Counted from the stretch's first letter, positions 23,930 to 26,959 are shown. The stretch: 64,000 nt of DNA from Dictyostelium discoideum (GCA_000004695.1 CM000153.2:4768001-4832000), one strand, 5' to 3'. Notes: generated by a model not told the origin, from the letters alone. Numbers and translations are program-made.

Positions 23930-24931
23930 ATGAAATTTTTAATTGTTTTAATTTTAGCATTATTCGCTTTATCAAGTGTTAATGCAAGCAGCGCTATTGA
24001 ATGCGAACTTTGTGAATATGCTGCCAATTATGGTGAATTGCTCATTCAATCAAATGCCACCGAAACTGAAATTATCGATAAAGTTGAAAACTTTTGCAAA
24101 GTTATCCCATCTAGTTTCCAAGCCACTTGTGATAGTTTAATCGCAAACTATGGTAAACAACTCATTCAAATGATTGTCAACAAAGAATCACCAAGCACTT
24201 TATGCGCTCAAATTGATATGTGTGCATCATCAACTGAAGCCGTCCAAGGTATTTTAGAATGTGACATTTGCCAATTCATCGTTAAACAAGTCAACAAATA
24301 TATTTCAGGTAACGCAACTGAAGCCCAAATCCTCAAATTCTTAGATACTGATTGTGAAGTCTTTGGTAAAGGTGGTTCAGTAACTTGTCAAAACATTGTC
24401 AACAACTATGCCCCACAAATCATCAATTTAATCATTAACAACGCATCACCATCCCAAGTCTGCGGTCTTGTCGGTTTATGTGGCTCCTCTTTGAAAATCG
24501 AAGAACCAGTCCAAGGTGAATTAGAATGTGGTGTTTGTGAAGTCATTGCTCAACAATGCTCAAACTACATCAAAGCCAACAAAACCGAATCTGAAATCGT
24601 TGGTCTCCTCGATCAATTCTGTTCAACTCTTTCAATCTTTGAAAGTGCTTGTGATACCATCGTTGCCAGCTCTGCTCCAAAGATCATCAACTTACTCTTA
24701 CAAAACCAAAGTGCAACTGTAGTTTGTACCGAAATTGGCTTCTGTGGTAACTCTTCATCAGGTAATAACAACCATTCATCATCTGAAGAATCTTCATCAT
24801 CTTCCCAACCATCATCATCTTCTGAATCATCAGAATCAAGTTACTCTGGTTCAATGACTGGTGCTTCATCTGGTTCAGCTTCAGGTTCAGGTTCAGGTAC
24901 ATCTGGAAACATGAAAATTTACATCAAATAA
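23930..24931 (+). CDS. Saposin-like (SAPLIP / amoebapore-like, Apl-type) secreted protein with three saposin-B domains and a Ser/Gly-rich tail (333 aa).
   Basis: Signal peptide MKFLIVLILALFALSSVNA. Three repeats of the 6-Cys saposin pattern (CELCEY…FC…TC…LC…MC; CDICQF…; CGVCEV…). Confidence 0.75.
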   Translation: MKFLIVLILALFALSSVNASSAIECELCEYAANYGELLIQSNATETEIIDKVENFCKVIPSSFQATCDSLIANYGKQLIQMIVNKESPSTLCAQIDMCASSTEAVQGILECDICQFIVKQVNKYISGNATEAQILKFLDTDCEVFGKGGSVTCQNIVNNYAPQIINLIINNASPSQVCGLVGLCGSSLKIEEPVQGELECGVCEVIAQQCSNYIKANKTESEIVGLLDQFCSTLSIFESACDTIVASSAPKIINLLLQNQSATVVCTEIGFCGNSSSGNNNHSSSEESSSSSQPSSSSESSESSYSGSMTGASSGSASGSGSGTSGNMKIYIK

Positions 24932-25030
24932 ATTTAATAATTAAATAATTTAAGTTGTAAAAAGAAAAAAAAAAAAAAAGTAATAATAAAAAAAAATTAA
25001 AAAATTAAAAAAATATATATTTTTAGATTC

Positions 25031-25048
25031 GTGGGAAAATTTTCCCAC
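25031..25048. promoter_or_regulatory. Perfect 18-bp palindrome GTGGGAAAATTTTCCCAC between saposin-like genes 1 and 2
   Basis: A GC-containing palindrome in an otherwise >85% AT spacer. A related GGGAAAC-N21-TTTCCC inverted repeat lies at 26159-26191, between saposin-like genes 2 and 3. Another, AAATTTCC-N14-GGGAAATTT, lies at 483-513. 'TTTCCCAC' also occurs at 23497, upstream of saposin gene 1. Confidence 0.35.
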
Positions 25049-25223
25049 TTTTTTCTTTTTTCAAAATTTTTTTTTCTTTTTTTTTTTTTTTAATTTCAGA
25101 CCTCTTTTCGATTTTATTTGAAAATTTACAAAAAAGCAAGATATTTTTTTTTTTTTTCTTTTAATTTTATTTTTTTTTTTTTTTTTTTTTTTTAAAAAAT
25201 TATTTTAGTTCATCACAATAAAA

Positions 25224-25254
<31 letters not shown>

Positions 25255-25558
25255 TTTCGATTCCAATCAAATATAAAAATGTAACTATAACTTTTTTTTC
25301 GATTTCTTTTTTTTATCAAAAAAATAAAAAAAAAAAAAAAAAAAAATAATAAAAATTATTGTTTGAAATAAAAAAAGCTATTTTTTAAAAAATTTAAAAA
25401 TAATAATATTTTATATAATTTGGTTTTTGGACATTTTTTTTTTTTTTTTTTTTTTTTTTTAGTAATTTATCAATAGAAAAAATATTAATCAAAAAAAAAA
25501 AATCAAAAAATCAAAATCGAAATCAAAAAATCAAAATAAAAATAAAAATAGATAAAGG

Positions 25559-26032
25559 ATGAAATATTTAAAGGGTTTAATTTTAGCTTTAGTAGCTTTA
25601 TCAAGTGTTAATTCATTAAATATAAAAGATGATGCTGAATGTATGCTTTGTAATGTTATAGTTGATGAAGCTGAGGCATATGTTGCACAAAATTTTAACT
25701 CCACTGAAATTTCTTCAATCCTCAGTGAAAATTGTCAATTACTCCCAAGCTTCCAAGACGTATGTATTGGTATTGTTGATGAATATACACCAACCATTAT
25801 TAAATATATAATTGCTAAAGAATCACCAACAACCATTTGTGAACAAATTAATTGTTGTGATTCATCATCATCATCATCATCATCTCAAGACTCTTCATCA
25901 TCAAATAATGACTCTTGGTCAGAATTTGGTTCATCATCTCAAGATTCTTCATCATTCGAAAATAATTCATCATCTGATAATTCTCAATCTAATACTGGTG
26001 CTTCAACAGGTACATCTGGTCATAGTTTGTAA
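25559..26032 (+). CDS. Saposin-like (Apl-type) secreted protein with one saposin-B domain and a Ser-rich tail (157 aa).
   Basis: Signal peptide. 'CMLCNVIVDEAEAY…NCQLLPSFQDVCIGIVDEYTPTIIKYI…TICEQINCC' 6-Cys saposin fold. Poly-S tail. Confidence 0.7.
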   Translation: MKYLKGLILALVALSSVNSLNIKDDAECMLCNVIVDEAEAYVAQNFNSTEISSILSENCQLLPSFQDVCIGIVDEYTPTIIKYIIAKESPTTICEQINCCDSSSSSSSSQDSSSSNNDSWSEFGSSSQDSSSFENNSSSDNSQSNTGASTGTSGHSL

Positions 26033-26404
26033 ATTAAACATTAAACTCCTTTTTAATAAATTAACCTTTTTATTATTATAAATTGTTTTTTTTTTATTGA
26101 TTTTTTTTTTGTTGATTTTTTTTTTTTTTAATTTTTAACACTTAAAAAAAAAGGTTTTGGGAAACTTTAAAAAAAAATATCTAAATTTCCCAAAAACTAT
26201 TTTTACCATTTTTTTATTTTTTTTATTTTTATTTTTTTATTTTTTTATTTTTATTTTTATTTTTTTCAAAACGATTTTTTTTTTTTCAACATTATTCAAA
26301 ACAGAAAATTCAATTTAATTTGTTTGCAATTATTTATTTATATTAAAATTTTATTTATAATTTTTTTATTTTTGTATTAGATAAAAAATAAAATAAAAAA
26401 AAAA

Positions 26405-26959
26405 ATGATGACTAAAGTTTATTATTATTGTTTTATTATATTTTTATTATTTATTTCAATGATAACATTATCAAATGGTGCAAAAGATATGGAATCAAAT
26501 GAACCAAGCAATTTAAACTTTTATGAATTAACAGAATCATTAAAAGAATCACCAGCATGTACAATTTGTGAATACTTTGTTAATGAAGTTGAAGTATTAT
26601 TATCAAGTAATACTAGTCTTTCAAAGATAAATCAAACTTTAGAACAAGATTGTGGTTTATTTCCATCATTTGTAGAGACATGTTTAGAGGTTGTTATAAA
26701 GTATACAACATTGATGATCAAATATATTGAACAAAAAGAAACAGCAATTTACATTTGTGATAATCAATTTAATTTATGTGATAGTGGTAGTCAATCAGAT
26801 TCAACAGATTATGATTCCTCAAATTCATTTACAGGTTCTTATAATTCAGGTTCATCAATTTCATTTTCTTCAGATTCTTCAAACCCATCATCTGGTTCAG
26901 GTTCTATAACAGGTTCAATGACAGGTTCTGGTTCAGGTTCAGCTGGTCCATTTTATTAA
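26405..26959 (+). CDS. Saposin-like (Apl-type) secreted protein with one saposin-B domain and a Ser/Gly-rich tail (184 aa).
   Basis: Signal/TM MMTKVYYYCFIIFLLFISMITLS. 'CTICEYFVNEVEVLL…DCGLFPSFVETCLEVVIKY…YICDNQFNLC'. Confidence 0.65.
   Translation: MMTKVYYYCFIIFLLFISMITLSNGAKDMESNEPSNLNFYELTESLKESPACTICEYFVNEVEVLLSSNTSLSKINQTLEQDCGLFPSFVETCLEVVIKYTTLMIKYIEQKETAIYICDNQFNLCDSGSQSDSTDYDSSNSFTGSYNSGSSISFSSDSSNPSSGSGSITGSMTGSGSGSAGPFY

What the first reader, a model, noticed from the sequence alone, without database searches (positions are those of the whole stretch)
23930..26959. Tandem cluster of three saposin-like (amoebapore-type) secreted-protein genes with intergenic GGGAAA/TTTCCC palindromes
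Three co-oriented genes encode signal peptide plus saposin-B domains (3, 1 and 1 domains) with Ser/Gly-rich tails: a local expansion of an antimicrobial/lipid-binding SAPLIP family. Each spacer contains a GC-bearing inverted repeat: a perfect GTGGGAAAATTTTCCCAC at 25031-48, and GGGAAAC…TTTCCC at 26159-91. TTTCCCAC also sits upstream of gene 1 at 23497. Such palindromes are expected about 0.4 times per 64 kb at this base composition, so their clustering in this tandem array looks like a shared regulatory site. One option is a STAT-like TTC…GAA class site, but the factor is unknown.
Basis: partly seen in the sequence, partly recalled or inferred. Interest (0 to 1): 0.5.

Follow-up and report, generated by a model that had tools for sequence, protein, structure and literature searches.

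The report
Conserved promoter dyad between amoebapore-like genes
The three genes are the already-annotated Dictyostelium antimicrobial saposin-like genes aplB, aplC and a neighbour; one of the two GC-bearing inverted repeats between them is a deeply conserved non-coding element that is probably a transcription-factor binding site, while the showy perfect 18-bp palindrome is a single-strain accident built on a conserved half-site.

Summary
Three co-oriented SAPLIP genes lie at the stated coordinates in a D. discoideum window. They are aplB (DDB_G0286651), aplC (SAPLIP C) and DDB_G0286653, all annotated members of the published 17-gene Apl family. Footprinting across eight lineages separates them. 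Element 2 (26155-26195, TTGGGAAA..ATATCT..TTTCCCAA) is the only GC-bearing island kept in all distant species in its spacer. Element 1 keeps only its right half, TTTCC[C/A]AC; its left arm reads GTTGG in every other strain, so the perfect 18-mer is specific to this strain. TTTCCCAC at 23497 is not conserved beyond the discoideum group. Arm sequence is conserved but hairpin stability is not. Assembled mRNAs place element 1 about 40 nt past the aplB mRNA end. A variant dyad with the same ATATCT neighbour sits upstream of the unlinked saposin A gene. The best reading is a sequence-specific protein-binding promoter element, half-site TTCC[C/A]A[A/C] beside a GATA-like AGATAT, with the factor unknown. 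The orientation is the reverse of a STAT site, and aplB and aplC are repressed by bacteria, not induced. Modest interest: known genes plus a new candidate cis-element.

The parts
23930..24931 (+). Gene 1: aplB (DDB_G0286651 by inference; Q54LG3). Signal peptide, three SAPLIP domains and a Ser/Gly-rich tail.
   Evidence: ORF. Pfam finds three SapB_1 and three SapB_2 matches. NCBI names. The name aplB comes from PMC7078664 Table S1 plus adjacent DDB/XP numbering, which is an inference.
23812..24993 (+). Extent of the assembled aplB mRNA: about 118 nt of 5' UTR (a minimum) and about 60 nt of 3' UTR.
   Evidence: Five independent Logan RNA-type contigs, L012-L016, anchor at 23812/23817 and 24989-24993.
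25559..26032 (+). Gene 2: aplC (SAPLIP C, Q54LG2). Signal peptide, one SAPLIP domain and a Ser-rich tail.
   Evidence: The synonym 'SAPLIP C protein' = aplC in PMC7078664 Table S1.
26405..26959 (+). Gene 3: DDB_G0286653 (Q54LG1). Signal peptide, one SAPLIP domain and a Ser/Gly-rich tail.
   Evidence: Pfam SapB_1 E=3.4e-10; SapB_2 falls below threshold.
25031..25048 (.). Element 1: perfect 18-bp palindrome GTGGGAAAATTTTCCCAC, perfect only in this strain. It lies about 40 nt past the aplB mRNA 3' end and 511 nt upstream of the aplC ATG.
25034..25060 (+). Conserved core of element 1 within the discoideum group: GGAAAATTTTCCCACTTTTTTCTTTTT. Only AAATTTCC[C/A]AC[C/T]T persists in D. citrinum, D. 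dimigraforme and D. firmibasis.
   Evidence: Alignments.
26155..26195 (.). Element 2: inverted repeat TTTTGGGAAA-N21-TTTCCCAAAA. It is conserved as a unit in all eight lineages, 65-131 nt after the aplC stop and about 240-350 nt before the gene 3 ATG.
26157..26164 (+). Left arm TTGGGAAA, the only GC-bearing 7-mer island of spacer 2-3 present in all three distant species.
26177..26182 (-). Central ATATCT (AGATAT on the minus strand, GATA-like), invariant in all eight lineages.
26186..26194 (+). Right arm TTTCCCAAA, present in 2 of 3 distant species. D. dimigraforme has TCCCCAATTGGGAAC here, and D. cf. discoideum Z has lost it (ATTCTC).
23497..23504 (+). Isolated TTTCCCAC upstream of aplB. It is kept only within the discoideum group and is probably not part of the system.
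23560..23785 (+). aplB proximal promoter with its own conserved islands: TCAAATCGGCAA (23560-71), CGAAAATTCGTTTTAC (23612-27), AAAACGATTTT (23694-704), the TATATATAAAC box (~23750) and AATGTAGGTCC (23775-85, near the transcription start).
   Evidence: Footprint, alignment, transcript 5' ends.
26267..26315 (+). Gene 3 proximal promoter islands: CAAAACGATTTTT (shared with the aplB promoter) and AAACAGAAAATTCAATT (a likely start region).

Best explanation
The two GC-bearing inverted repeats are promoter-region protein-binding elements of the downstream apl genes. Element 1 would serve aplC and element 2 would serve DDB_G0286653. The recognised unit is a half-site TTCC[C/A]A[A/C] (reverse [T/G]T[G/T]GGAA). 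In element 2 two half-sites face each other around a GATA-like AGATAT, which makes a composite site for a dimer, or for two monomers plus a GATA-type factor. That site lies roughly 100-140 bp upstream of the likely transcription start. Element 1 is essentially a single conserved half-site; in the sequenced strain one T-to-G change completed a perfect palindrome. What is shown: the sequences, their statistical rarity, conservation of sequence rather than of fold, an intergenic position, and recurrence upstream of another Apl gene. What is inferred: that a protein binds, that binding controls transcription of the downstream gene, and the direction of the effect. I guess activation in vegetative cells, because aplB and aplC are highly expressed then. 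The factor is unidentified.
For: Rarity: GGGAAA-N(0-30)-TTTCCC occurs 3 times against 0.08 expected. Among non-coding GC-bearing perfect inverted repeats with arms of 9 nt or more, two of three are these elements. Conservation: in spacer 2-3 the only GC-bearing 7-mer island present in D. citrinum, D. dimigraforme and D. firmibasis is TTGGGAAA. TTTCCCAAA is in the next tier, and ATATCT is invariant, although aplC protein identity falls to 50% and the rest of the spacer cannot be aligned. Sequence, not structure: the arms do not covary, and predicted hairpin stability is unremarkable in D. citrinum (z=+0.39) and D. firmibasis (z=-0.92), against -3.65 in the window. Position: the aplB mRNA ends at about 24993, so element 1 is intergenic. 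No comparable element follows gene 3, where the next gene is convergent and no promoter is needed. Recurrence: strict TTGGGAA-N(0-30)-TTCCCAA occurs 5 times in 196 kb of dictyostelid DNA, all of them orthologs of element 2 (null 0.13). The relaxed dyad occurs 11 times (null 1.33), and 10 of those lie in spacers next to apl genes. One of them is ATATCT-TTTGGAAAA-N10-TTTTCCAAA, 150-175 bp upstream of the unlinked saposin A gene, in a divergent promoter that has no 3' end. TTTCCCA is the top informative 7-mer shared across promoters and species. Half-sites also lie upstream of SAPLIP genes in T. lacteum (two direct copies; the only TTCCCAA in 13 kb) and in C. fasciculata. A half-site within 12 nt of AGATAT occurs 10 times against 2.6 expected, with 0 of 100 shuffles reaching 10.
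Against: There is no binding or expression experiment, and no genome-wide scan was possible. The motif definitions were relaxed after looking at the data, so the enrichment figures are optimistic. The half-site alone is not specific to apl genes: 6 of the 11 non-coding TTTCCCA[AC] sites in the window lie elsewhere, for example upstream of an unrelated gene at 34199. The D. purpureum Apl promoter I examined lacks the dyad. Orientation and spacing of half-sites vary: 0-25 nt inverted, but direct in T. lacteum. Both elements keep a more constant distance to the upstream stop codon (99-125 nt and 65-131 nt) than to the downstream ATG (300-558 nt and 239-352 nt), which fits a 3'-end or boundary role equally well. 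The transcription starts of aplC and gene 3 are inferred, not observed.
Confidence: 0.55

Rival explanations
1. Boundary or roadblock element between tandem genes. A DNA-bound factor sits just past the upstream gene's poly(A) site. It stops read-through polymerase and/or fixes a nucleosome-free region flanked by poly(dA:dT), and so protects the downstream promoter, much as general regulatory factors such as Reb1 do in yeast.
For: Both elements keep a nearly constant distance from the upstream stop codon (99-125 nt and mostly 116-131 nt), while the distance to the downstream ATG varies about two-fold. Element 1 lies about 40 nt after the mapped aplB mRNA end. It is flanked symmetrically by an A-rich and a T-rich tract (I11). 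No element follows gene 3, where the neighbour is convergent.
Against: The saposin A dyad sits in a divergent promoter with no upstream 3' end. The T. lacteum and C. fasciculata half-sites also follow no co-oriented apl gene. Constant spacing may simply reflect fewer indel-prone A/T runs on that side. This role still requires a sequence-specific binding protein, so it overlaps with the main explanation.
Confidence: 0.15
2. DUSE-type promoter elements for unannotated small non-coding RNA genes lying in the spacers.
For: Both arms of element 2 read TCCCAAAA, an exact match to the published DUSE pattern [AT]CCCA[AT]AA (PMC3188802). DUSE is required for class I RNA expression across Dictyostelia (PMC7919456).
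Against: DUSE acts about 60 nt upstream of the RNA start. No conserved block lies at a fixed distance from either arm in the four species. The sequences 60-130 nt away are A/T runs with no predicted structure (z=+0.5 and +0.3). Rfam finds nothing at gathering score, and only noise at E up to 10. Element 1 (TCCCACTT) does not fit DUSE. About 16 DUSE-pattern matches occur in the window anyway, half of them in coding DNA.
Confidence: 0.07
3. Chance, or neutral relics of the ancient tandem duplication, with no function.
For: The perfect 18-mer is produced by a single strain-specific base. TTTCCCAC at 23497 is not conserved. TTTCCC is not enriched as a word. A/T-run inverted repeats are everywhere, with 184 pairs in 4.6 kb.
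Against: Element 2 is preserved in order, orientation and approximate spacing in eight lineages, while its surroundings have diverged beyond alignment. The spacers are not detectably homologous to each other apart from a T-run plus CAAAACGATTTT, so the dyads were not inherited inside a duplicated block. The shuffle controls also argue against chance.
Confidence: 0.1
4. Structural element: a DNA cruciform or an RNA hairpin acting in 3'-end formation or transcript stability.
For: In the window both elements fold better than shuffled sequence (z=-3.2 and -3.65).
Against: Stability is not maintained in orthologs (z=+0.39 and -0.92). The arms are conserved in sequence with no compensatory changes. 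Element 1 loses its stem in every other lineage. Element 1 lies outside the mature aplB mRNA.
Confidence: 0.04
5. STAT-like (GAS) site.
For: The elements contain TTCC and GGAA words, and Dictyostelium has STAT proteins (my own knowledge).
Against: GAS sites read TTC-N(2-4)-GAA. These dyads read GAA...TTC on both strands, with 4-25 nt between GAA and TTC. A single arm (TTCCCAAAA) lacks the GAA half. Dictyostelium STATa sites are, to my recollection, of TTGA type; I could not verify this because the papers are not held.
Confidence: 0.03

Closest known systems
Apl (amoebapore-like, SAPLIP) gene family of D. discoideum: 17 genes, aplA-R (PMC5890168; PMC11542183)
   Same: The three genes carry a signal peptide and 1-3 saposin-B domains. 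Two are named aplB and aplC in public annotation. They are highly expressed in vegetative cells, as reported for aplB and aplC.
   Different: Nothing at the protein level. The tandem arrangement and its synteny across Dictyostelium species are not discussed in the papers I could read.
DUSE, the Dictyostelium upstream sequence element of ncRNA genes ([AT]CCCA[AT]AA, about 60 nt upstream of the start)
   Same: Both arms of element 2 match the 8-nt pattern exactly. Like DUSE, it is a rare CCC-containing word in AT-rich intergenic DNA and is conserved among dictyostelids.
   Different: No ncRNA, conserved block or structure lies at the defining ~60-nt distance. The elements come as an inverted pair around a GATA-like word. 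Element 1 does not match. The context is protein-coding promoters.
Composite dyad transcription-factor sites in Dictyostelium promoters (for example the CRE TGACGTCA, G-box/CAE elements bound by GBF, and GATA-factor sites)
   Same: They are short GC-bearing words standing out in AT-rich spacers, often as dyads or with variable half-site spacing, and conserved between species. A conserved CRE and G-box-like words occur in the same intergenic region (22809-18, 22872-80, 23406-19).
   Different: The half-site TTCC[C/A]A[A/C] does not match any Dictyostelium factor site I could find or recall, and the binding protein is unknown.
CSL/Su(H) sites (GTG(G/A)GAA; PMC1973085) and paired head-to-head sites
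   Same: The window reads CGTGGGAA, and the conserved right arm reads TTCCCAC, which is the GTGGGAA core in reverse.
   Different: The left CGTGGGAA exists only in this strain. D. citrinum and D. dimigraforme have TTCCAAC, and element 2 has TTGGGAA. Whether Dictyostelium has a CSL protein could not be established here.

Membership tests
SAPLIP / Apl family | Saposin-B domain (Pfam SapB_1 + SapB_2) | tested here: met
   Protein 1 has 3+3 stretches (E 5e-31 and 4e-30). Protein 2 has one pair (7e-07 and 1e-09). Protein 3 has SapB_1 at 3.4e-10, with SapB_2 below threshold.
SAPLIP / Apl family | Six conserved cysteines per domain | tested here: met
   The domain alignment shows C3, C6, C34, C45, C70 and C76 invariant in all five domains.
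SAPLIP / Apl family | N-terminal signal peptide | not tested
   Hydrophobic N-termini ending in SSVNA/SSVNS/LSNG are visible, but no predictor is available.
SAPLIP / Apl family | Annotated as apl genes in the reference genome | tested here: met
   One search gives SAPLIP C, saposin B domain-containing protein and DDB_G0286653. Searches give aplB = DDB_G0286651 and aplC = SAPLIP C (PMC7078664 Table S1).
SAPLIP / Apl family | Pore-forming or antimicrobial activity | not testable with these tools
   Shown only for AplD, AplE and AplK in the literature (PMC5890168, PMC11542183).
STAT / GAS site | Half-sites in the order TTC-N(2-4)-GAA | tested here: not met
   Both elements read GGGAAA...TTTCCC on either strand, with 4 nt (element 1) or about 25 nt (element 2) between GAA and TTC.
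DUSE (ncRNA promoter element) | Match to [AT]CCCA[AT]AA | tested here: met
   Element 2 has TCCCAAAA on both strands (26188 +, 26155 -). Element 1 (TCCCACTT) does not match.
DUSE (ncRNA promoter element) | An ncRNA gene starting about 60 nt downstream | tested here: not met
   There is no Rfam match, no conserved block at a fixed distance and no structure. Expression data were not available.
Structured hairpin (DNA or RNA) | Pairing maintained across species, ideally by compensatory change | tested here: not met
   Stability is lost in orthologs. The arms are invariant or broken and never compensated.
Conserved cis-regulatory (protein-binding) element | Conservation above the surrounding non-coding DNA in orthologous position | tested here: met
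   Met for element 2. Met only for the right half-site of element 1. Not met for the 23497 site.
Conserved cis-regulatory (protein-binding) element | Recurrence upstream of co-regulated or paralogous genes | tested here: inconclusive
   Present upstream of saposin A and, as half-sites, in T. lacteum and C. fasciculata. Absent from the D. purpureum Apl promoter. Only 4 extra promoters could be examined.
Conserved cis-regulatory (protein-binding) element | Demonstrated protein binding or effect on transcription | not testable with these tools
   Needs EMSA, a reporter assay, or ChIP/ATAC data.
CSL/Su(H) site | GTG(G/A)GAA core conserved, and a CSL protein present in the organism | tested here: inconclusive
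   The core is present in the window's left arm only in this strain. The right arm is conserved in some species (TTCCCAC) and is TTCCAAC in others. Presence of CSL in Dictyostelium was not resolved.

The most novel reading that the evidence does not exclude
The half-site TTCC[C/A]A[A/C] next to AGATAT is the recognition code of a still unidentified dictyostelid transcription factor, or a factor pair including one of the many GATA-type proteins. That factor would drive a vegetative 'bacterial killing' regulon (Apl pore-formers and perhaps other lysosomal effectors) and would be conserved from group 1 to group 4 Dictyostelia. It would be a protist counterpart of a dedicated lysosomal or antimicrobial gene network. 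A variant of this reading is that the snRNA-type DUSE and its binding complex have been co-opted into mRNA promoters.
Probability: 0.12. Interest if true: 0.55.

Novelty: new member of a known kind. Interest (0 to 1): 0.27.

Why it matters
The genes themselves are known, so they add nothing new. The value is a concrete, testable cis-element for a family whose regulation has not been studied. The 17 apl genes split into vegetative and late-developmental expression classes, and at least aplA and aplD matter for killing Klebsiella. Very few Dictyostelium transcription factors have defined binding sites. A 40-bp element conserved across species, with clear half-sites, is a practical bait for DNA-affinity purification and a ready target for promoter mutagenesis. 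The work also carries a caution: the most eye-catching feature, the perfect 18-bp palindrome, turned out to be the least conserved.

Tried and rejected
- **Rfam:** nothing on the whole window at gathering score, and only noise on 22.5-27.4 kb at E up to 10; the weak mir-7359 hit on element 2 merely reflects its hairpin shape.
- **Hairpin or cruciform function:** rejected, because stability is not conserved.
- **DUSE/ncRNA:** the pattern matches, but the ~60-nt rule, structure and conservation all fail.
- **Class I RNA-like word CCTTACAACAA at 27130:** within chance (28 of 100 shuffles), with no DUSE and no stem.
- **Duplicated-spacer relic:** the spacers are not homologous apart from a T-run plus CAAAACGATTTT.
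- **Third GGGAAA..TTTCCC hit at 3373:** a different CA-rich tandem repeat.
- **Generic 3'-end element:** absent after gene 3 and after saposin A.
- **E2F (TTTSSCGC):** the CGC core is absent (read directly from the sequence).
- **STAT/GAS:** wrong orientation.
- **CSL:** the match is strain-specific.
- **Literature search by sequence words:** returned only primer noise. The CudA dyad paper (PMC3586674) is not held, and the STAT site papers are not held.
- **Reaching Apl paralogs:** the word-index homolog searches failed. My 1e-5 cut-off was probably too strict, and the domain profile found 1 hit. The exhaustive HMMER search was dominated by giant multi-domain SAPLIPs from other organisms.
- **D. 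dimigraforme aplB upstream region:** excluded, because that gene is degraded or misassembled.
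Full report
**What the window is.** Base composition is about 20% GC. Exact protein look-ups place the window in Dictyostelium discoideum, on a 5.45-Mb AX4 record. The three ORFs are at the stated coordinates. Pfam gives three, one and one saposin-B domains; in the third protein only SapB_1 passes the cut-off, but all six cysteines are present. NCBI names are 'saposin B domain-containing protein' (Q54LG3), 'SAPLIP C protein' (Q54LG2) and DDB_G0286653 (Q54LG1). 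Table S1 of PMC7078664 lists DDB_G0286651 as aplB and 'SAPLIP C protein' as aplC. Gene 1 = aplB is an inference from adjacent numbering and from its very high expression. These genes therefore belong to the published 17-gene Apl family (PMC5890168). The cluster is old: the same three-gene arrangement is found in D. citrinum, D. dimigraforme and D. firmibasis, and the domains are only 29-37% identical to one another.

**The observation.** The 18-bp palindrome at 25031-48 is unique in the window (expected 0.05). GGGAAA-N(0-30)-TTTCCC occurs three times against 0.08 expected, although TTTCCC as a word is not enriched. The second repeat has perfect 10-nt arms, TTTTGGGAAA/TTTCCCAAAA, at 26155-26195. 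The third hit, at 3373-3406, belongs to a tandem pair of ~58-bp CA-rich units next to a Na/Ca-exchanger gene and is a different object. A/T-run inverted repeats are trivial here, with 184 pairs in 4.6 kb. Of the three non-coding GC-bearing perfect inverted repeats with arms of 9 nt or more, two are these elements. TTTCCCA[AC] occurs 11 times in the window's non-coding DNA, five of them in the roughly 2.3 kb of apl spacers.

**Phylogenetic footprinting.** I fetched the orthologous cluster from three wild D. discoideum strains, two 'cf. discoideum' lineages and the three other species, then aligned them.
- Element 2 is retained in all eight lineages as GG(T/A)TTGGGAAA, an A-run, ATATCT, then TTTCCCAA. 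Two lineages show partial changes: D. dimigraforme has TCCCCAATTGGGAAC on the right, and one cf. discoideum has lost the right arm.
- An unbiased test asked, for every 7-mer with at least 2 G/C in each spacer, whether it recurs in the orthologous spacer of the three distant species. In spacer 2-3 the only island found in all three is TTGGGAAA, with TTTCCCAAA among the next best.
- Element 1 behaves differently. In every other strain the left arm reads GTTGG rather than GTGGG, and in D. citrinum and D. firmibasis it is GTGCAAAA and ATTGAAAA. Only AAATTTCC[C/A]AC[C/T]T survives. The perfect palindrome is a single-base, single-strain state built on a conserved half-site.
- TTTCCCAC at 23497 is absent from D. 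citrinum and D. firmibasis. The aplB promoter has its own, different conserved islands: TCAAATCGGCAA, CGAAAATTCGTTTTAC, AAAACGATTTT, a TATA box and AATGTAGGTCC.

**What kind of element.**
- Predicted hairpin stability is high in the window (z=-3.2 and -3.65) but ordinary in D. citrinum and D. firmibasis. The arms are conserved in sequence without compensatory change. The constraint is therefore on sequence, which points to protein recognition.
- Five independent assembled mRNA contigs put the aplB transcript at 23812-24993. Element 1 thus lies about 40 nt beyond the mRNA end, in intergenic DNA.
- The three spacers are not homologous to each other, apart from a T-run plus CAAAACGATTTT shared by the aplB and gene 3 promoters. 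The dyads were therefore not simply copied with a duplicated block.
- Across promoters and species, TTTCCCA is the most widely shared informative 7-mer, and its one-step variant TTTCCAA is next.

**Other Apl promoters.** Reaching paralogs was difficult, but I obtained three further loci.
- 'Saposin A' (Q54Q68) from a wild D. discoideum strain is unlinked and has five domains. It is presumably aplA, whose loss slows killing of K. pneumoniae (PMC8545105). It carries ATATCT-TTTGGAAAA-N10-TTTTCCAAA 150-175 bp upstream of its ATG, in a divergent promoter. That is an inverted pair of the variant half-site with the same ATATCT neighbour.
- A D. purpureum Apl lacks the dyad.
- The T. lacteum three-domain homolog has two direct half-sites about 300 bp upstream, including the only TTCCCAA in that 13-kb locus. 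C. fasciculata saposin A has one TTTCCCAC about 110 bp upstream.
- Over 196 kb of dictyostelid DNA the strict dyad occurs five times, all orthologs of element 2 (null 0.13). The relaxed dyad occurs 11 times (null 1.33), and 10 of those lie in apl spacers.
- A half-site within 12 nt of AGATAT occurs 10 times in independent loci against 2.6 expected, including places unrelated to apl genes. The half-site alone is also found upstream of unrelated genes.
- These patterns were refined after seeing the data, and orthologous hits are not independent, so the figures should be read as suggestive only.

**Rivals.**
- DUSE: both arms of element 2 match the published DUSE pattern [AT]CCCA[AT]AA. DUSE acts about 60 nt upstream of ncRNA starts. 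Here there is no conserved block at a fixed distance, no structure and no Rfam match.
- Boundary or roadblock role: this is the most serious rival. Both elements keep a nearly constant distance to the upstream stop codon but a variable distance to the downstream ATG. Against it, the convergent region after gene 3 has no such element, and the saposin A dyad has no upstream 3' end.
- STAT-like GAS site: excluded by orientation, since these elements read GAA...TTC rather than TTC...GAA.
- CSL site: the window's CGTGGGAA matches the CSL consensus, but that base is strain-specific.
- Bacterial induction: published RNA-seq shows aplC at logFC -1.58 and aplB at -0.42 with K. pneumoniae, and aplB at -1.09 with B. 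subtilis. These are highly expressed vegetative genes (PMC11542183) that are mildly repressed, not induced.

**Verdict.** The genes are known. Element 2 is a genuine conserved non-coding element and most likely a composite transcription-factor site in the promoter of DDB_G0286653. Element 1 is a conserved half-site that happens to be palindromic in this strain. The 23497 site is probably noise. The idea of a site shared among Apl promoters is plausible but rests on few promoters. The factor and the direction of regulation are unknown.

Noticed in passing
window ~27004-27026: An AT-only near-perfect palindrome, TTTATATTTAA-A-TTAAATATAAA, lies about 45-70 nt after the stop of gene 3, in the convergent 3' region. 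It is conserved in essentially all lineages, including D. firmibasis, and is followed by a second conserved block, ATAAATAAATTATTTATTA. It may be a shared 3'-end signal for the convergent genes.
   Followed up: partly
window 22809-22818: A perfect CRE-type palindrome, TTGACGTCAC, lies in the divergent promoter between the CBM49 gene and aplB. It is conserved in the discoideum group and in D. dimigraforme. G-box-like GTGTGGGTG (22872-80) and TTGTGGGTAGTGTG (23406-19) lie nearby.
   Followed up: no
window 23604-23631: GATATTACGAAAATTCGTTTTAC is invariant in the discoideum group and D. citrinum, and nearly so in D. firmibasis. It contains a heat-shock-element-like cGAAaaTTCg dyad and is the longest conserved island of the aplB promoter.
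   Followed up: partly
window 23570-23585: CAACAGTTGATAACTG contains two Myb-type YAACNG words, next to the deeply conserved TCAAATCGGCAA.
   Followed up: no
window 3343-3430: A tandem pair of ~58-bp units, TTTCCCTCA(C/T)ACCCACTAATCCAAAGATGTGG(G)AA, each internally inverted (ACCCAC/GTGGG). It is CA-rich/G-box-like and lies beside a Na/Ca-exchanger gene.
   Followed up: partly
window 27125-27140: GTTGACCTTACAACAA resembles the 5' stem plus 11-nt motif of dictyostelid class I RNAs with one mismatch. There is no upstream DUSE, no closing stem, and the match is within chance.
   Followed up: yes
L007 3630-5506: In D. dimigraforme the aplB ortholog appears degraded or misassembled. Only the C-terminal ~90 codons form a clean ORF, and a long poly-isoleucine ORF lies upstream.
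   Followed up: partly
window 26405-26959 versus L001-L005: The Ser/Gly-rich tail and the annotated start of gene 3 vary between strains, giving 155-184 aa models. The aplB and aplC tails also vary by a few residues, which suggests repeat-length polymorphism in the tails.
   Followed up: no
window 25139-25144, 23604-23609, 26177-26182: AGATAT(T) occurs once in each of the three apl upstream regions and is conserved in its orthologs. In the aplB and aplC spacers it lies about 100 nt downstream of the TTTCCCAC word.
   Followed up: partly
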